From: a virus
Taxonomy: Duplodnaviria; Caudoviricetes
IMG/VR virus record: IMGVR_UViG_3300025018_000322
Location: 1 to 36,074 of that record
Reading direction: 5' to 3' (one strand)
Length of the DNA stretch: 36,074 nucleotides
A model generated the notes under the pieces. The model searched no databases. It was not told the origin of the DNA and saw only the letters and a program-made list of their open reading frames with translations. Positions 1 to 36,074 of the stretch are shown piece by piece. Made by a program: the position numbers and the translations under genes. Position 1 is the first letter of the stretch; each line of letters begins with the position of its first letter.

Positions 1-19
1 TTCTCCCACTCAGTGTGTA
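1..19. other. Fold-back tip: reverse complement of 46-64, probably a library/assembly artefact
   Basis: TTCTCCCACTCAGTGTGTA is the exact reverse complement of 46-64; bases 1-18 do not match the sequence preceding the terminal repeat at the right end. Confidence 0.75.
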
Positions 20-124
20 ACTAATAAGAGAACACCTTGATAAGCTACACACTGAGTGGGAGAATGACGAAGAGAATGACGGACACCATAAAAGCAATGA
101 GGGCTGGGTAGGTTACTCCGTTTC
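19..124 (+). repeat. Terminal direct repeat, left copy (106 bp; circular overlap)
   Basis: Identical to 35969-36074; implies a unit length of 35950 bp. Confidence 0.95.
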
Positions 125-16000: not shown

Positions 16001-19000
16001 ATGGCGTACAGCCTTCGACCAGACCGCTTCAGAGATGAACTTGAAACATACAAGCCAAGAGTGGCTACTACTAGTGTTGCCCCAGTTCAACAACAAGTAG
16101 CTTCTACTGCACAGCCGTATAGTTTTAAACAGCGAGACGATAAAGGTTTTGACTTCTTTAAAGGTAACCAAAAAACAACCATAGAAGACTACGCAAAGGG
16201 AATAGGTCGAGAGACCTCCGAAATTAGAGGGGCGCTTGCAGGTGCTGAAGACAAGCAGTCTCAAGAAATACTTACAAAACGATACTACGAGAAGCAACCC
16301 GAAGTTCAGAAGTTTAATCAGTCTGACGTATACGACCAACGTAAAAGGCTCTCTGAGCTACAAGGGCTTGCAGGCCGTACCGAGTTTAACTCTCAAAAAG
16401 ACATCGACAACGCAAAGTGGGCGCAAGGGCAACTTTCTGCAATCGAACAAGCGGGAAAAAACCAAGCTGGAAACCCTATTACCTTCCTACAGTATATGGT
16501 TGGGCTTTCGGCTGATACTTACGGCAGGCTTGCTCAAGGTGGAGGTAGGGCGCTTGATGAGTTCACTGTTGGTTCTCAGAGAAAACTAGACGATTCTCGA
16601 ATAAAGAATATTGAGTCAATGAACCAAATGCGTAATCAGCTTATTCAGCGCTACTCTCAAGGCCCGGTAGTGGGAAATGTCACCGAAAGAATGTCGCCTC
16701 AAGACCGTCAACTTTATGAGGGATTGACCGAAAGACTCGCCGCTCAACAAGCCACAGTAAATGCAACTAGTCAGAAAATACAAGACGAAGCTGACCCAGT
16801 TAAATATGCAGCCGCGGCTGGAACTGCAGTCTTAGACCTTGCGACCCTTGGTGCTGGCTCAAAACTTCTCACTACAGCAGCACGTGGACTTGTGCCAGGA
16901 GCAACGCAAACAGGTAGCAAGTTATTGAACTTTGGACAAACTGTTCTTGCTCCTCAGGGGATTAAGCAAGGGCTTACGTCATATGCTACTCTAGGATTTG
17001 GCTATGGTACAGCGGGTACAGCCGAACAACTAGGCTCACAAGCTACACTTGGAGACTATGCGATGGGCGGTGCAACTGGAGCGTTACTTGGTTCAGCGCT
17101 CGGCACGGCAGTACCAACCGCAGCTAAACTCTTTAACGCTGGTCGCACGGCTTTAGGTAAGACTGGTACAAAAGCTCAAAGAATGATAGATATAGATAAT
17201 CAAGCAAGAACCGCAGCTCAAGAATATTCACGAGAACTCGCCCAAGCAGACCCACGAGTAGTCAATGCACTCGAAACCGCACAAACCAAAACAGCTCAAG
17301 CCAACCAACTCATAGACCGAGGCCTCAGCCCCAACTCCCCAGATGTACGCCTACTACAAAGAGAAGCGCAACAAGCTACCCAATTTGCAGACGACACCGC
17401 CAACCGTATAGCTAATGAACAATACCAACAGCAATACAACACTTTTGCAAAACAACTTGAAACAGAAGCTCGAGGCTCAGACCGACGAGCAGGTGTAGAA
17501 GAATTGCGTGACATTAACAGAGAAGTCCGACAACTTGTGCCGGGCGGTACACTTGATGCGCCGTTAGGTCGTACGCCGAGAGTTTTGACCGAAGAGCAGT
17601 ACCTAGCACAAAACGGTGCATCGTTTATGGATGGGGCTGAACCAGCCCTTCAACAGAACAGAATACCTACTAAAAGAGGACAGTCTGATGCTGTCAATTC
17701 TGCAATGGGGCGAATGTCTGAGAACAATGCAAGGCGTGAGGCGCTACGAGCCGAGTATAAGACTAAGATTGCAAGCGGTGAGATAGTAGAACCAAGCTCT
17801 ATCGAAAGATTGATAGAAAGGGCAAATGGTCTACCTGAAAACGAAAGTACTCAGGCGGCACGAAGGTTACTAGAAAAAAGAGGTATCAACCTCAAAGATG
17901 TTATAGGTAGTAAAACCCCAAAGACCGCTCGAGTATGGGTAAAAAGCAAGTTCTCAGACAAGGGTGGGTATAGTGACTATCCTATAATCAGGCAAGAGGA
18001 TAATATAACCTTGTATCAGGGCGGAAAGGCCAATGACAATAGGCAATTTTGGACGCCAAACAGAAAATATGCTGAACAGTTCGGAGACGTAAGGGAAAAG
18101 ACAGGTTCATTTTACAAAATTGACAATGGCAACAAGCTAACAGACGTATACGTAGAAGTTGCTAAAAGTGGTGATACCCCAACCACGCCATCAAGACTAA
18201 GTAGAGACACGTCACCAGAAGCACCAACAAACCAACAAGGCCAAAATACGCCACAACGCCAATTATCAGAAGACCTACCCCAAGAGGTAAAAACTCGCCT
18301 GAATACTTTAGCTGATACTTCACAACGTACTCCTAATGCTTATAATGATACACTAAACACTCCATTAGGTGAAGTCCTCGGGGACTTACGTATGGACGCT
18401 ACGAATAAAATGCCCGATTGGAACGCCCCGGCAGCTTCAGCACGTTCTAACAGCGCCCAGAGACTAGCGGACGACCTTAACCAGAACCAAAAACTTAACA
18501 AAGCAGCGGCAGACGCCCAGCAAAGTGGTGAAGAGATAAACTTCTACGCCAAAAAGGACAAAAACGATCGCTCAGTGGGAATTGAACGGTTCGACCCTCG
18601 TACCCAAAAGATTGAGTCTGGCTTTGTAACAGACAGAGACGGCAACGTACTCGGAAACCACATTAAAGTGGACAAGACGGGTATTCAGGTGAACGTTGGC
18701 GGTGAATTGATAAACATGGAGCGAGTTCTTGGAGACGCAAGTCAATGGAAGGGTAAGTACCGAGTAGGTGAAACAATCAGCCGAAACATCGACTCAAACG
18801 CCCCAAGTAAAGAGGTGGCTGATGCAACTAAGGACTTCTTGGTAGCAAACAAGAGAGCGGCCGAATCTAAATACAAGACAGAACTCAAGAAGACATACGA
18901 TGAGCTTGGAGAGAGAATTGATACGGTTAAATCAGCTCGCCCTAGTGGTGTATCGAAGAAAGACTTTAACGAGAACATATTTGCCCTTCTCAACGGAGAC

Positions 19001-25813: not shown

Positions 25814-26623
25814 ATGGCTATCCGAGTACCAGTAAACAACCCACGAATCACCCAAGGATTTGGGGCTAACCCTGCTTATTACAAGCAGTTTGGGCAGAAG
25901 GGTCATAACGGCATAGATTACGGTCAAAATACCGGCACTACTATTTACGCTGCTGAATCAGGAACTATTTATTTTGAAGGGTTTGGTCAGAATAACGCAT
26001 GGCTTGGAGCGGTTGCTGGAATCTCTGTTTTAATAGACCACGGCAAGTTCTACACAGGATACGCTCATATGCAGAATACTGTAATCAATAGAGGCCAGAA
26101 GGTATCGAAAGGGCAAGTCATCGGCTACGTTGGAGCTACAGGAACAGCCACAGGACCGCATTTGCACTTTGAAGTCCTACCTAAACCAGTTAATATAAAT
26201 AACGGATACTACGGCAGGACTAACCCTGCACCGTACTTCCTAGAGGAGAATAAGACAGTGGACAAGAACGACCTAAACTATATTTATCAATACGGACCCT
26301 TAGGACGAAAGAGGGGCGCTGGAGAAGGCGAAGATGTCTACTTAGGTAAGACAGCATCTTTTGTTATAAATGACCACGCTAACAGTGCAGAGGGTAAAGC
26401 CAGGGCTAAGGCTATTGCAGATGCTTTCAAGCGACCAGAGACAGTCGTCAAGGAAGTCGTCGTCACCAAAGAAGTACCAGTAGAAGTAGAGAAAATTGTT
26501 GAAGTGGAAGTCGAGGTGATTGTAGAGAAGGAAGTCATTAAAGAGGTAAACACCAACGATGATGACCGCACCTTTGGCGACCTTTTTATGTCCGCAATGG
26601 CTAAACTTTTCCGCATCAAATGA
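25814..26623 (+). CDS. Endolysin, M23 peptidase
   Basis: HNGID, YAHM, GATGTATGPHLHFEV; C-terminal V/E/K repeats. Confidence 0.9.
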   Translation: MAIRVPVNNPRITQGFGANPAYYKQFGQKGHNGIDYGQNTGTTIYAAESGTIYFEGFGQNNAWLGAVAGISVLIDHGKFYTGYAHMQNTVINRGQKVSKGQVIGYVGATGTATGPHLHFEVLPKPVNINNGYYGRTNPAPYFLEENKTVDKNDLNYIYQYGPLGRKRGAGEGEDVYLGKTASFVINDHANSAEGKARAKAIADAFKRPETVVKEVVVTKEVPVEVEKIVEVEVEVIVEKEVIKEVNTNDDDRTFGDLFMSAMAKLFRIK

Positions 26624-26700
26624 TATAATGTAATTGTAAAGAGGAGATAATACACAAAGCGGTCAAGAATCAAAACTTGATATAAAACACTTTGTACGTT

Positions 26701-26808
26701 ATGAGTAAAACCAATTCGTTAGACAAGTTCAGTATAGGGTTCGAGTACGACAGGACACTTGCCGAAATTAAACGAAACATCAAGGCGAGGACTTATGCGG
26801 AGTCTTAA
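26701..26808 (+). CDS. Possible 35-aa peptide
   Basis: MSKTNSLDKFSIGFEYDRTLAEIKRNIKARTYAES*; between two TGATATAAT boxes; no clear SD. Confidence 0.3.
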   Translation: MSKTNSLDKFSIGFEYDRTLAEIKRNIKARTYAES

Positions 26809-26851
26809 CCAACTACAAGATGATATAATTCCATATATAAAGGAGAAGAAG

Positions 26852-27103
26852 ATGAGCAAAACATTTGAGGCACTAAAAGCCTTAGACTACAAAGACATAG
26901 CTACAAGGGCGCTTTGGACGTTCATACAGGCCTTCCTAGCCACTTCTCTGCTAGCACTTGAGCAATTAGTCGATTTATTGTTCCTAGGCGACTGGGACAG
27001 CTTATACGCCCTCGGAGTTGTGACTGCGGTTGCAGGAGTCGCAGCCGGACTTTCAGCGGTTAAGACTATAATCGTTCAGACTATACGTTCTATAAAAGCC
27101 TGA
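26852..27103 (+). CDS. Holin (r1t-like, two TM)
   Basis: AAGGAG before MSKTF; RALWTFIQAFLA and AVAGVAAGLSAVK. Confidence 0.7.
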   Translation: MSKTFEALKALDYKDIATRALWTFIQAFLATSLLALEQLVDLLFLGDWDSLYALGVVTAVAGVAAGLSAVKTIIVQTIRSIKA

Positions 27104-27115
27104 TATAATGTAAGC

Positions 27116-27220
27116 GTGCCGTTGGGACACCACTACGTTCGTGTGAGACTTCGGTCACTCTCAATTGCACATGAACGGCAGTAGCAGAATATAAACCTTC
27201 GTACATGCGAGGGTTTTCTG
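27116..27220 (+). ncRNA. Structured small RNA 1 (pseudoknot) with own promoter and terminator
   Basis: TGATATAAT 27101-27109; P1 27116-27127/27159-27170, P2 27136-27142/27171-27177, UUCG hairpin; terminator 27194-27217. Confidence 0.65.
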
Positions 27221-27233
27221 TTATAATAAAATA

Positions 27234-27326
27234 GCGTATCGAGGCACAGAACACCGTTCATTCTCACCTCGTAGATATGCGTGAACGGCAGAATATAGCA
27301 CCCGTAATATACGGGTGTTTCTGTTT
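27234..27326 (+). ncRNA. Structured small RNA 2 (same pseudoknot topology)
   Basis: TGTTATAAT 27219-27227; P1 27234-27244/27267-27280, P2 27254-27261/27281-27288; terminator GCACCCGTA-ATA-TACGGGTGT-TTCTGTTT. Confidence 0.65.
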
Positions 27327-27361
27327 AGTACAAGTGCTAGTACAAGTCATGACACAAGTGC
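27326..27361 (+). repeat. Three imperfect 12-bp tandem repeats abutting a -10 box
   Basis: TAGTACAAGTGC TAGTACAAGTCA TGACACAAGTGC then TATAAT. Confidence 0.8.
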
Positions 27362-27373
27362 TATAATATAAAT

Positions 27374-27556
27374 ATCCGATAAGTTCACTGGAAACATAAC
27401 TGTCGGGGCAATTCTCGTGCAGAGATTTGGTTGTACGTCAGGGCGTCAGCCCTATGGAGCATTTATTGTCCCCTGCCCATAAAAGACTAGGGTATAAGAC
27501 TCGCGCAGGTTACCAATGAAAGACCTGCACCAAAGCACCTTCGGGTGTTTTTCTGT
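27374..27556 (+). ncRNA. Multi-stem small RNA 3 (~180 nt)
   Basis: TGCTATAAT 27359-27367; several stems; terminator AGCACC-TTCG-GGTGTT-TTTCT at 27534-27554; no convincing ORF. Confidence 0.6.
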
Positions 27557-27616
27557 TATTTTGCTTAAATTATTTGACGCATATGTTACAATAAAAACAT
27601 AACCATAAGGGCATAC

Positions 27617-27829
27617 ATGGAATACGACAGCTACATCAAGACCTTACCTGACGCCGAAGTCCAAAGACTATACGATGAGTCTGTCTACACCGCCAACACC
27701 CACCTTGAGACCGCACAGGAGCTTGCCAGTGAGCTTGCGATCAGAAATGTGCAAGTCGGTAAGGCTAGAGAAGAAATACAGCGCATATTCGCACAGGACT
27801 ACGTAAGTCCAGAAGTGGTCGAAGGCTGA
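27617..27829 (+). CDS. Hypothetical protein
   Basis: TGTTACAAT promoter-like box 27584-27592; AAGGG RBS. Confidence 0.7.
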   Translation: MEYDSYIKTLPDAEVQRLYDESVYTANTHLETAQELASELAIRNVQVGKAREEIQRIFAQDYVSPEVVEG

Positions 27830-27830
27830 T

Positions 27831-28199
27831 ATGCGAGGGGTTGTCCGTCGGGACAATCACCATATTCTTAATATCGCGAGCCAGTGGGAATCGACCTCAG
27901 CCGCTAAATCCCTCCGCCAAGAACCCTCCCTACAGGTCAGACTCGATAGAGAGCAACACGAACTTATCCACCGAGAGTGTCCCCCGATACCCCTACTCGG
28001 TCACCACGCTCTTATGCAGGTCAGGCGAGACTTTGAACCACACCACAACCACCAGAAGGCTATAGATAGCCTTCTTAGGTCTATAGAAAAAGCAGGACAA
28101 CACCCAAAAGCCCACGTCCTCGAAACCTCTTTAGCCCAACTCGCAATCTGGTCAATAGAAGAGCAGATACCGTACCTAGAACTACGAAGGTATCACTAA
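27831..28199 (+). CDS. His-rich protein, possibly degenerate HNH-like
   Basis: DNHHIL...LDREQHELIH spacing. Confidence 0.45.
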   Translation: MRGVVRRDNHHILNIASQWESTSAAKSLRQEPSLQVRLDREQHELIHRECPPIPLLGHHALMQVRRDFEPHHNHQKAIDSLLRSIEKAGQHPKAHVLETSLAQLAIWSIEEQIPYLELRRYH

Positions 28200-28200
28200 G

Positions 28201-29355
28201 ATGCGGTGGGTGGACGAACATCTAAAGAACTTACTCACGCTAGATATAGAGGAGCTGAAAAAACTATACCCAGAGCAAACAGAAAAGAACTTAATACGAA
28301 GGAAACAGGAGAAAAGAATGGAACATCAAGGCGGAAGATTATCAAAGCAATGGGAAGTCTCCGCTTTTGATCGTGAGGCGAACGAATGGACGACTACATT
28401 AAACAGCGCCTACGAATATGCCCCAGACCCAGAAGAGCTGTTTAAGGACTGGAAACCCGCAACTCCTGCTCGTATCACCCCGTCCCGAAGGAAACCTATT
28501 GAAAGAGACCACAAAACCCTGCTCGTATTCGGGGACATGCAGATTGATTATAGACGAATAGATGACGACCTCATCCCAATACACGACGAGAAAGCCATAC
28601 AAGCCCTCTTAGACTTTGCCAGAGACCTCCGACCCGATGAGTTGGTTAACTTAGGCGATACCGTAGATTTAAGCGCCCTAAGCCGTTTTAATAAGGATTC
28701 AGACCATTTCTATAGAACCCTTGGCCCTTCATTCCAACGTATACACGACATATATGCCCAACTAAGAAGCGATAACCCAGATGCAAAGATTACAGAGGTG
28801 GACTCAAACCACCACAAGAGACTGACGGACTTCGTATTAAAGCAAATGCCTGACTTCTACGGTGTGAGACAGGCAGGAAACTCCGACGACTATCCTGTCA
28901 TGACCTACCCCTATCTAGCAAACCTCCGCCATGTCGGAGTTGATTGGGTTGGTGGTTATGGCTCGGCGACTTACGAGTATGCACCAGACCTAGCTTTCAT
29001 ACATGGCCAATTCTCTGTTTCTAGCGGAAGTACCGCCTCTAAACTCTCAAGGGCGAACCCAGATAGGAATATCGTACAAGGTCACGCACATCGAATTGAA
29101 AGCCAGTACAGGACCACAAGAGAGGGAAAATATCTAGGAGCGTTCGTTGTCGGGGCAATGTGTCGGATAGACGGGATAGTGCCTAGCTATCACTCGTCAA
29201 TAAATGAGATGGGCAGGCCCCTTGTTCATAACGAGAACTGGCAGGCGGGAGTAATGGTGATTAGGGATTACCCAGATGGCAATCGTGAGTTCGACCAAGT
29301 GCCTATCCATAACGGCGTCTTGAGATACAAAGGCATGCAGTATGGAAAAGAATAA
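28201..29355 (+). CDS. Calcineurin-like metallophosphoesterase
   Basis: GDMQ, NLGDTVD, SNHH, FIHG, QGHAHR motifs. Confidence 0.85.
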   Translation: MRWVDEHLKNLLTLDIEELKKLYPEQTEKNLIRRKQEKRMEHQGGRLSKQWEVSAFDREANEWTTTLNSAYEYAPDPEELFKDWKPATPARITPSRRKPIERDHKTLLVFGDMQIDYRRIDDDLIPIHDEKAIQALLDFARDLRPDELVNLGDTVDLSALSRFNKDSDHFYRTLGPSFQRIHDIYAQLRSDNPDAKITEVDSNHHKRLTDFVLKQMPDFYGVRQAGNSDDYPVMTYPYLANLRHVGVDWVGGYGSATYEYAPDLAFIHGQFSVSSGSTASKLSRANPDRNIVQGHAHRIESQYRTTREGKYLGAFVVGAMCRIDGIVPSYHSSINEMGRPLVHNENWQAGVMVIRDYPDGNREFDQVPIHNGVLRYKGMQYGKE

Positions 29356-29969: not shown

Positions 29970-30125
29970 CTACTGACAACCGAGGCACATAGTTAGGTCG
30001 GCAGGGTCGCTCTGAACACCATATTCTTTATTCTCTTTAACGGTAGCCTCGGCCATAATCTTATCTATAGCCTCTAGCTTTGCGTCTAAGCTCATCTCAG
30101 CGTCTATAATAGTGTTTGCGTTCAT
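29970..30125 (-). CDS. 51-aa peptide ending in CxxC (…DPADLTMCLGCQ)
   Basis: AAAGGAGG RBS; MNANTIIDAEMSLDAKLEAIDKIMAEATVKENKEYGVQSDPADLTMCLGCQ*. Confidence 0.75.
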   Translation of the reverse strand: MNANTIIDAEMSLDAKLEAIDKIMAEATVKENKEYGVQSDPADLTMCLGCQ

Positions 30126-31212: not shown

Positions 31213-31262
31213 TATAAGAGAAACCGCCCTGTTGGGGGCGGCTTTCTACATCCATCTAAGCT
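31213..31262 (-). ncRNA. ~50-nt RNA B / attenuator terminator
   Basis: TTGTTT-17-TATTAT (31297-31269) with TG; CCGCCC-CCAACA-GGGCGG-TTTCTCTT. Confidence 0.5.
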
Positions 31263-31373
31263 GTATTCATAATACCACAGCTAGCGTATAGAAACAAGCC
31301 CCGAACACAATGTTTGGTTCAACTTATTTGGCAAGTTCCATCCGTGTGCTTAGATGGATGAAACTTATCTCTC

Positions 31374-31402
31374 AGTATACACAACTTAATGCTTACGTTC
31401 AA
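31374..31402 (-). promoter_or_regulatory. Promoter A for the leader of the rep-like/MTase operon
   Basis: TTGAAC-17-TATACT; transcript opens with an 11-bp hairpin (31333-31366) needing a G-U pair on the minus strand. Confidence 0.7.
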
Positions 31403-31445
31403 GGGTAAAGTTTATGCTTGTGGACAAGATGTGGACGAGTAGGGT

Positions 31446-31560
31446 AAAAACAAAACTCCCTCAATTAGTGTAGCCGAGGGAGAGTTGCCAGCACATCACA
31501 TAGTGTAATGTTTAATATGTTGTGGTGATACCACGGAAGGTGCGACGATCAAAACCGTAT
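31446..31560 (-). ncRNA. Small RNA C
   Basis: TGTTAAAAT (31575-31567); terminator CTCCCTC..GAGGGAG-TTTTGTTTTT. Confidence 0.5.
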
Positions 31561-31576
31561 ACGCTTATTTTAACAC

Positions 31577-31715
31577 AAAAAACACCCTGTTGAGATACGA
31601 AAGTGGAGGGTAGTTACTTGTCGTAAGGGGTGTCTCTTGCCTAACTTAGTTAGAAATAGGGAGGTATAATGTGCTTACCCGACCGTGGCTCTGCTCTATG
31701 CAGCGAACGGATAAT
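31577..31715 (-). ncRNA. Small RNA D with anti-SD segments
   Basis: TTGTAT-17-TAGTAT (31750-31722) with TG; TTATCCG/CGGGTAA stem; ACACCC..GGGTGT-TTTTT end. Confidence 0.5.
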
Positions 31716-31748
31716 ACCCAGATACTATCACGGTTGTGCTTAAAATAC

Positions 31749-31849
31749 AAGAAAAGCCTCGCAAGTGTAGGGTTAACTACGGCGAGGCTCTCTCTGTCAC
31801 CAAACAGGCTAGAAAGGTTCAACAAAAAGAAGAAGCACCCGTCTGGTTC
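31749..31849 (-). ncRNA. Small RNA E with pyrimidine loop antisense to early leaders
   Basis: TGGTATAAT (31864-31856); stem ACCAGACGGG/CCTGTTTGGT; terminator AGCCTCGC..GCGAGGCT-TTTCTT. Confidence 0.6.
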
Positions 31850-31882
31850 ATAAACATTATACCAGAAAGTCGCTAAAAAGGC

Positions 31883-35949: not shown

Positions 35950-36074
35950 ATGACCACAGACTATATAAAACTAATAAGAGAACACCTTGATAAGCTACAC
36001 ACTGAGTGGGAGAATGACGAAGAGAATGACGGACACCATAAAAGCAATGAGGGCTGGGTAGGTTACTCCGTTTC
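35950..36074 (+). CDS. 5' part of 97-aa hypothetical protein continuing through the join to 293
   Basis: AAAGGAG RBS; MTTDYIKLIREHLDK... Confidence 0.8.
   Translation, partial: MTTDYIKLIREHLDKLHTEWENDEENDGHHKSNEGWVGYSV
35969..36074 (+). repeat. Terminal direct repeat, right copy
   Basis: Identical to 19-124. Confidence 0.95.

What the first reader, a model, noticed from the sequence alone, without database searches (positions are those of the whole stretch)
27101..27326. Two tandem, independently transcribed RNAs sharing an unrecognised pseudoknot fold
Seen: each unit is TGnTATAAT, then 7 nt later a G that begins P1, then CAC linker, CGTTCRT (P2 5'), variable insert (UUCG hairpin in copy 1, 5 nt in copy 2), P1 3', RTGAACG (P2 3'), GCAG, CAGAATATA and a terminator ending TTCTG whose end supplies the TG of the next promoter in copy 1. 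P1 sequences differ almost entirely (GTGC-C-GTTGGGA/TCTCAAT-T-GCAC versus GCGTATC-GAGG/CCTC-GTA-GATATGC) yet both pair: internal covariation. I do not recognise the family. Inference: trans-acting protein-binding or decoy RNAs, e.g. anti-defence mimics analogous to pseudo-ToxI or RNA anti-CRISPRs, or a new ribozyme.
Basis: partly seen in the sequence, partly recalled or inferred. Interest (0 to 1): 0.85.

Follow-up and report, generated by a model that had tools for sequence, protein, structure and literature searches.

The report
Knotted small RNA pair in phage
A phage that likely infects tiny Saccharibacteria carries two related, gene-free units, each with its own predicted promoter and terminator, that are predicted to fold into the same unusual knotted RNA matching no Rfam family, and that would most likely act as stable decoys for a host protein.

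Summary
Behind the holin-like gene of a 36-kb tailed phage genome lie two related units (27101-27222, 27219-27326), each with an extended -10 box, a G seven bases later, two interleaved helices and a terminator. P1 pairing beats shuffles in both copies (0 and 17 of 5000), as does the whole knot (5 and 1 of 3000). Rfam has no match. The knot is atypical: P1 and P2 would stack into a nicked ~18-bp helix with the 5' G at the nick. Caveats: the covariation rests on two sequences, and copy 1 has an equally good unknotted fold. Collection scans gave only one probable relative (L164, p about 0.01), which keeps P2 and lacks P1. The host is likely Saccharibacteria. The pair sits in a variable island of unrelated small-RNA cassettes seen in related phages. 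The HDV-like, pseudo-ToxI and CRISPR-repeat readings failed the tests I could run. Best reading (0.4): stable RNA 'morons' that present the conserved P2 helix to a host protein as a decoy; expression and target are untested. Interest 0.5.

The parts
27101..27109 (+). Predicted extended -10 promoter of copy 1 (TGATATAAT); its TGA is the stop codon of the holin-like ORF
   Evidence: the same promoter type precedes tmRNA in Saccharibacteria-class genomes
27116..27127 (+). Copy 1 P1 5' strand, starting at the predicted +1 G; pairs with 27159-27170 (11 bp plus one C-U mismatch)
27128..27135 (+). Copy 1 loop L1 (CACCACTA)
27136..27142 (+). Copy 1 P2 5' strand (CGTTCGT); pairs with 27171-27177; can extend 3 bp with 27143-27145/27168-27170 in competition with outer P1
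27143..27158 (+). Copy 1 insert with a weak GAC-UUCG-GUC hairpin (27147-27156; computed energy 0.0)
27159..27177 (+). Copy 1 P1 3' strand (27159-27170) running with no gap into the P2 3' strand (27171-27177)
27185..27222 (+). Terminator 1 (inner stem 27193-27216, outer CAGAA/TTCTG); its end overlaps promoter 2
27219..27227 (+). Predicted extended -10 promoter of copy 2 (TGTTATAAT)
27234..27244 (+). Copy 2 P1 5' strand from the predicted +1 G; pairs with 27267-27280 (7 + 4 bp, GTA bulge); the GAGG part can alternatively pair with 27262-27265
27245..27261 (+). Copy 2 loop L1 and P2 5' strand (27254-27261, 8 bp with 27281-27288)
27262..27288 (+). Copy 2 L2 (TCTCA), P1 3' strand and abutting P2 3' strand
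27289..27326 (+). Terminator 2 (inner stem 27297-27319)
27359..27556 (+). Third, unrelated promoter-terminator unit (~180 nt, several hairpins) of the same island; its 5' 46 nt are 89% identical to a cassette in a related phage (L182)

Best explanation
These are two related gene-free units of a tailed phage, each with its own predicted promoter and terminator, that likely make stable small RNAs (about 105 and 90 nt) predicted to fold into a knot, and would act as decoys that bind and titrate a host protein through their shared P2 helix. Steps: (1) shown in sequence: promoter-like box, +7 G, P1, P2 and terminator in each copy, and shared ancestry; (2) inferred: host RNA polymerase transcribes each unit separately; (3) predicted: P1 forms first, P2 then closes on its loop, and since the P1 3' strand runs straight into the P2 3' strand the helices stack into a nicked ~18-bp rod with the 5' triphosphate G at the nick; (4) inferred: the paired 5' end and the terminator shield both ends from the RppH/RNase J type of decay; (5) inferred: P1 is a sequence-free scaffold, while the sequence-conserved P2 with its CAC and GCA flanks is the recognition face; (6) untested: the partner is a host RNA-binding or defence protein, identity unknown.
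For: P1 pairing is specific to each copy and beyond chance. The knot ranks 2nd and 3rd among 643 promoter-downstream segments from the window and relatives; 23 and 2 of 25,720 shuffled segments reach those scores. P2 changes between copies keep pairing (G-U to A-U, U-A to U-G). The probable relative L164:17631-17714 keeps promoter, P2 (10 of 11 pairs) and the GCA flank but drops P1, which puts the conserved part in P2. A crude helix model says the loops are just long enough, and the knot is favoured by about 5 kcal/mol in copy 2. No ORF of 20 codons or more lies wholly within copy 2; the one 22-codon GTG frame in copy 1 starts at the predicted +1 and is not shared. The site is a variable slot: close relative L121 has a different small cassette here. 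RNase J is in 60 of 61 host-class genomes, and B. subtilis RppH needs at least two unpaired 5' bases (PMC3997798, passage). Hfq and CsrA were found in 0 of 61, with controls ringing.
Against: No expression or binding evidence, and no partner identified. Only two sure examples and one probable one (4 of 300 null sets reach the L164 score against copy 1; 70 of 1000 with the two-copy consensus alone; copy 2 shows no likeness to L164). In copy 1 the knot estimate (-15.2) is worse than the best nested fold (-17.1), and loop L1 must be almost fully stretched (55-57 of 58 A). No mimicry of host-class 16S rRNA or tmRNA beyond chance. Such rarity is also what a young, decaying duplication would look like.
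Confidence: 0.4

Rival explanations
1. Punctuation or decaying duplicates: the units matter in cis, as two-way terminators that close the lysis operon plus spare promoters, and the folds are by-products of a recent duplication.
For: Terminator 1 directly follows the lysis genes; the terminators have outer CAGAA/TTCTG stems typical of two-way terminators. The family is almost absent from all collections scanned.
Against: One terminator suffices in the close relative L121. P1 was kept in both copies through many changes, which drift would not do. Each promoter faces only its own terminator.
Confidence: 0.2
2. Two-state or plain hairpin RNAs that act by base pairing with a host or phage mRNA; P1 and P2 are alternatives, not a knot.
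For: The minimum-energy fold is P2-extended in copy 1 and P1 in copy 2; L164 is a plain hairpin.
Against: Conserved bases are paired with each other, not exposed as a seed. The longest match to the phage's own genome is 10-11 nt. No Hfq in 61 host-class genomes. Host mRNAs were not searched.
Confidence: 0.17
3. [quoted passage not shown]
For: Both are phage-encoded, promoter-driven small RNAs, and ToxI is a pseudoknot (PMC3475682, PMC10651486; passages). A 2026 preprint notes that rAcrVIA1 mimics a crRNA fold with negligible sequence similarity (10.64898/2026.06.03.729762, part 1 of 5), so sequence tests cannot exclude it.
Against: No 36-nt repeat array; ToxN in 0 of 151 genomes (no control rang); Cas1 in 3 of 201; no likeness of either copy to the 3 repeats recovered (best p 0.04 among 12 tests).
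Confidence: 0.12
4. A new small ribozyme that cuts or joins at the nick, where the 5' G would abut the last base of the P2 5' strand (joining would give a 27-28-nt circle).
For: The nicked-helix geometry resembles a ligation junction (inference); the strand order P1-P2-hairpin-P1 in copy 1 echoes HDV-like ribozymes.
Against: No Rfam ribozyme match; no J4/2 strand for a catalytic C; no hammerhead CUGANGA/GAAA core; conserved bases are mostly paired; L164 has no nick.
Confidence: 0.06

Closest known systems
Pseudo-ToxI of phage PhiTE / ToxI antitoxin (PMC3475682)
   Same: Phage-encoded non-coding RNA, pseudoknot, more than one copy, plausible role as a protein decoy.
   Different: ToxI-type units are 36-nt near-identical repeats in one transcript. 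Here each 90-105-nt copy has its own promoter and terminator, there is no loop before the P2 3' strand, and no ToxN was found in the likely host class.
RNA anti-CRISPRs (Racr, PMC10651486; rAcrIIA1, 10.64898/2026.06.03.729762)
   Same: Stand-alone, promoter-driven small phage RNAs in intergenic accessory sites that work by titrating host proteins.
   Different: Racrs resemble CRISPR repeats or tracrRNA; these two copies resembled none of 3 host-class repeats.
HDV-like (delta, theta) ribozymes (PMC10879173)
   Same: Starts with a paired G; order P1 5', linker, P2 5', hairpin, P1 3', P2 3' in copy 1; found in phages.
   Different: No J4/2 junction with the catalytic C, no second pseudoknot, no P4, no adjacent tRNA, and the G is a predicted transcription start with nothing upstream to cut off.
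Phage morons and prophage small RNAs beside lysis genes (recalled: staphylococcal SprD/SprX; not checked by a call)
   Same: Self-contained promoter-terminator cassettes at a variable site next to the lysis module.
   Different: The cargo is structured RNA only, arranged in tandem islands whose content differs between related phages.

Membership tests
Any Rfam 15 family | Covariance-model score at the gathering threshold | tested here: not met
   0 hits in the window; 4 sub-threshold chance hits, E 0.34-9.5, in 26500-28200
Type III antitoxin / pseudo-ToxI | Tandem near-identical ~36-nt repeats in one transcript | tested here: not met
   Units of 118 and 108 bp, diverged, each with promoter and terminator; definition from PMC3475682 passages
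Type III antitoxin / pseudo-ToxI | Pseudoknot fold | tested here: inconclusive
   Knot supported statistically, but with no loop before the P2 3' strand and a rival fold in copy 1
Type III antitoxin / pseudo-ToxI | Cognate toxin in the host | tested here: inconclusive
   PF13958 in 0 of 151 genomes, no control rang; TenpN and CptN not searched
Type III antitoxin / pseudo-ToxI | Neutralises the toxin | not testable with these tools
   needs a bench assay
RNA anti-CRISPR (Racr) | Similarity to a CRISPR repeat of the host | tested here: not met
   12 comparisons with 3 repeats from the 3 of 201 genomes with Cas1: best p 0.04, rest 0.18 or more; the true host's repeat is unknown
RNA anti-CRISPR (Racr) | Own promoter, no cas genes nearby | tested here: met
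   (predicted promoter; 37 phage proteins scanned, no Cas hit)
RNA anti-CRISPR (Racr) | Blocks CRISPR interference | not testable with these tools
   needs a bench assay
HDV-like ribozymes | J4/2 junction starting with the catalytic C | tested here: not met
   0 nt between P1 3' and P2 3' in both copies; definition from PMC10879173 passages
HDV-like ribozymes | Nested double pseudoknot | tested here: not met
   one pseudoknot only; copy 2 has no P3 hairpin
Hammerhead ribozyme | CUGANGA and GAAA core (motif recalled) | tested here: not met
   neither motif in either copy
tRNA / tmRNA | Cloverleaf or tmRNA detected by ARAGORN | tested here: not met
   0 genes in the window
CsrB-type sponge | CsrA in the host and repeated GGA loops | tested here: not met
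   CsrA in 0 of 61 genomes, controls rang in 3 of 14; one GGA in copy 1, none in copy 2

The most novel reading that the evidence does not exclude
Phages of Saccharibacteria carry swappable arsenals of RNA-only morons, and this pair is a new decoy fold: a pseudoknot that hides its own 5' triphosphate at the nick of an ~18-bp rod and presents a fixed helix face to titrate a host defence or RNA-processing protein.
Probability: 0.3. Interest if true: 0.8.

Novelty: new variant of a known kind. Interest (0 to 1): 0.5.

Why it matters
Known phage RNA decoys are few (pseudo-ToxI, Racrs) and were recognised by their likeness to a known host RNA. These units resemble no host RNA tested and sit in islands of several unrelated small-RNA cassettes that differ between related phages. 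If they are decoys, a pull-down would point to host RNA-binding defences in a lineage where Hfq and CsrA were not found and CRISPR is rare. A knot that buries the 5' end in a nicked helix would also be a compact way to stabilise an RNA. The RNAs are about 100 nt, so probing and cleavage tests are easy; the uncultured host and the tiny family limit the impact for now.

Tried and rejected
Pattern scans. IMG/VR loose pattern: 120 loci from half the collection, none with the promoter-terminator context. Strict pattern: 0. With promoter: 10 loci, none convincing. Hairpin pattern from copy 1 plus L164: 20 loci, none promoter-terminator bounded; L300 shares both arms with L164 but lies inside a larger hairpin of another phage, so I set it aside as probable chance. 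JGI metagenomes: 14 loci, only the window's own record L162 real. Host-class genomes: 0 of 401. 50 relative phage records with a relaxed pattern: 12 matches against 15 for the reversed control; the one I opened (L254) was the end of a coding frame. GenBank phages: 3 chance DNA matches and no relative of the tail protein. blastn and nhmmer on 28 relative loci: nothing. Covariance models were weak: R1 (copy 1 plus L164) did not report copy 2; R2 (copy 2 alone) found copy 1 at 21.3 bits through promoter and terminator only, below an unrelated cassette at 24.4, so neither is evidence about the core. MAFFT misaligned the copies, so no covariation count was run. Sequencing runs: no RNA holder listed. 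16S and tmRNA mimicry: chance level in 28 comparisons on both strands. No spacer of 28 matched the phage. A DNA inverted-repeat binding site was rejected because the arm spacing varies (28, 19, 17 nt) and G-U pairs are kept. Literature: searches listed no paper on such RNAs (listings only). In Fremin 2023 (PMC10690425) the readable tables held none of the motifs, but the alignment archives could not be read, so an entry among its ~10,000 candidates is not excluded.

Full report
Setting. The window is a whole 36,074-base virus record. It encodes terminase, a major head protein, tail proteins, an M23 endolysin (25814-26623), a metallophosphoesterase (28201-29355), an Erf recombinase and methylases; the short hydrophobic ORF ending at 27103 had no family hit and I call it holin-like from its position. 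The host is likely Saccharibacteria. One of 5 genome-collection loci with the 666-aa tail-region protein is a 43-kb contig in a record titled Ca. Saccharibacteria; the other four are titled otherwise. Capsid relatives occur in 6 of 401 genomes of that class, one deep in a 333-kb contig. The phage's TGnTATAAT boxes (7 against a shuffle mean of 1.8) look like the sites upstream of tmRNA in several of the 5 genomes read. No spacer match confirms the host (0 of 28).

Observation. All elements are present. Copy 1: box 27101-27109, G27116, P1 27116-27127/27159-27170, P2 27136-27142/27171-27177, terminator to 27222. Copy 2: box 27219-27227, G27234, P1 27234-27244/27267-27280, P2 27254-27261/27281-27288, terminator to 27326. 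The P2 pattern occurs twice, against 0.01 by chance. Each 5' strand pairs with its own adjacent 3' strand at -12.6 and -11.5 kcal/mol (0 and 17 of 5000 shuffles); against the whole middle segment the counts are 216 and 64 of 5000, and cross-copy pairings give -4.1 and -7.9. A descriptor for 'P1 starting at the predicted +1 and abutting P2' gave 9 hits among 643 promoter segments, with these copies 2nd and 3rd; 1 and 5 of 3000 own-composition shuffles matched them. The descriptor was written from these copies, so this tests pairing, not discovery. The copies share ancestry (6 of 2000).

The P1 strands share GCGT..CG in a shifted register, and both copies keep TCTCA, which in copy 2 could itself pair with GAGG; the covariation is therefore register-dependent and rests on two sequences. 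CAGAA belongs to the terminator. Copy 1's minimum-energy fold extends P2 to 10 bp and gives up outer P1, while copy 2's is P1 alone. A rough penalty model favours the knot in copy 2 (-18.4 against -13.1) but not in copy 1 (-15.2 against -17.1).

Shape. In a classical H-type knot the short junction lies between the second helix's 5' strand and the first helix's 3' strand (own knowledge). Here the zero gap is between P1 3' and P2 3'. That strand would be continuous, and its partners, P2 5' and P1 5', would meet at a nick, with the 5' G beside the last base of P2 5'. A crude A-form model needs 53-57 A for loop 1 (58-72 A available) and 31-44 A for loop 2 (39 A available in copy 2): feasible but tight. 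This is a prediction, not a result.

Relatives. The exact motif was found nowhere else in IMG/VR, JGI metagenomes (only the window's own record, L162) or 401 host-class genomes. In 137 overlapping loci from related phages (1.39 Mb) my finder listed 37 distinct promoter-to-terminator stretches without a ribosome site (no null was run for that count, and the finder missed some). One, L164:17631-17714, matches 9 of 10 bases of copy 1's extended P2 5' arm and 11 of 13 of the 3' arm plus flank, forms 10 of 11 pairs, and lacks P1. Its significance is modest: 4 of 300 null sets against copy 1, none against copy 2, and 70 of 1000 with the two-copy consensus. If real, it says that P2 and its flanks are the conserved part and P1 is optional.

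Island. A third unit follows at 27359-27556; its 5' hairpin recurs in L182 (89% over 46 nt). The close relative L121 holds one different short cassette at the same site. L132, L136, L164 and L182 hold three or four cassettes in a row near the phosphoesterase gene, and some families recur between phages. Eight of these loci gave no Rfam hit. The pair is thus one cargo of a variable RNA-only accessory slot.

Mechanism. The simplest reading of a promoter facing only its own terminator, with no shared ORF, is a small RNA acting in trans. RNase J is in 60 of 61 host-class genomes, and B. subtilis RppH needs two or more unpaired 5' bases (PMC3997798, passage), so a 5' end paired from its first base would be protective. 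Conserved bases are paired with each other, not exposed; Hfq and CsrA were found in 0 of 61 genomes; self-genome matches stop at 10-11 nt. That favours recognition of a helix face by a protein over base pairing. Duplication would raise the dose or widen the range, as repeat expansion does for pseudo-ToxI (PMC3475682, passages). The partner is unknown: 16S rRNA, tmRNA and three CRISPR repeats showed no likeness beyond chance. I put this reading at 0.4, cis punctuation or decay at 0.2, base-pairing RNA at 0.17, a specific antitoxin or guide mimic at 0.12 and a ribozyme at 0.06.

Known families. No Rfam match. Not HDV-like, since J4/2 with its catalytic C (PMC10879173, passages) has no room. Not a type III antitoxin array; ToxN was seen in 0 of 151 genomes, without a ringing control. 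Not a repeat-like Racr (PMC10651486, passages; Cas1 in 3 of 201), though fold-only mimicry cannot be excluded (10.64898/2026.06.03.729762, part 1 of 5 read). It may work like these decoys without being a member of any. PMC12283969 and PMC13059738 (passages) added nothing on such RNAs. Five literature searches listed no description; the alignment files of PMC10690425 could not be read.

Verdict. A real, apparently undescribed RNA motif with two sure members and one probable one, a predicted but unproven unusual knot, no expression data and no target. New variant of a known kind (stand-alone phage small RNAs). Interest 0.5. The island of many RNA cassettes in this phage family may be the larger finding.

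Noticed in passing
window 27359-27556 (+); L182 7021-7065 (-): Third small-RNA unit; its 5' hairpin with a GAAA loop is shared with a cassette in another phage. Its middle also aligns weakly with a host-class type II CRISPR repeat (0 of 300 shuffles, one of 18 tests), but no tracrRNA-like part was seen.
   Followed up: partly
window 27331-27361: Three ACAAGT direct repeats at 12-bp period just upstream of and overlapping promoter 3; could be an operator.
   Followed up: no
window 31663-31864: Two more convergent promoter-driven units share a two-way terminator near 31765-31805. The minus one has an 11-bp 5' helix and tops the knot descriptor, but its second helix is low-complexity, G-U rich and too long for its 5-nt loop. 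No Rfam hit.
   Followed up: partly
window 31215-31566 (-): Gene-free, strongly folded stretch with two terminators upstream of the 86-aa ORF; may hold further small RNAs or the origin.
   Followed up: partly
L121 435-520; L125 ~16150; L123 ~16920; L134 ~14380; L132/L136 ~17100-17500; L164 17600-17900; L182 6800-7300: Islands of small promoter-terminator cassettes in related phages, with recurring families (L121/L125; L132/L136/L182); none in Rfam for the 8 loci scanned.
   Followed up: partly
L260 7936-8025 (+): Cassette in a close relative that by eye can form a classical H-type pseudoknot (GAGCA/TGCTC and CCCCAC/GTGGGG), unrelated in sequence.
   Followed up: no
window 29970-30125 (-): 51-aa ORF ending in a C-x-x-C motif, also present beside the RNA islands of L164 and L132/L136.
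   Followed up: partly
window 26621-26850: Two more extended -10 boxes between lysin and holin-like gene, around a possible 35-codon ORF.
   Followed up: no
window 1-80 and 35995-36074: The two ends share a short identical stretch, consistent with a circular or terminally redundant genome.
   Followed up: no
L337, L338, L339: CRISPR arrays in Saccharibacteria-class genomes: a 36-nt repeat ending like a Cas12a handle (label recalled), a 36-nt repeat with an anti-repeat beside an 1101-aa ORF, and a 25-nt repeat with ~19-nt spacers.
   Followed up: partly
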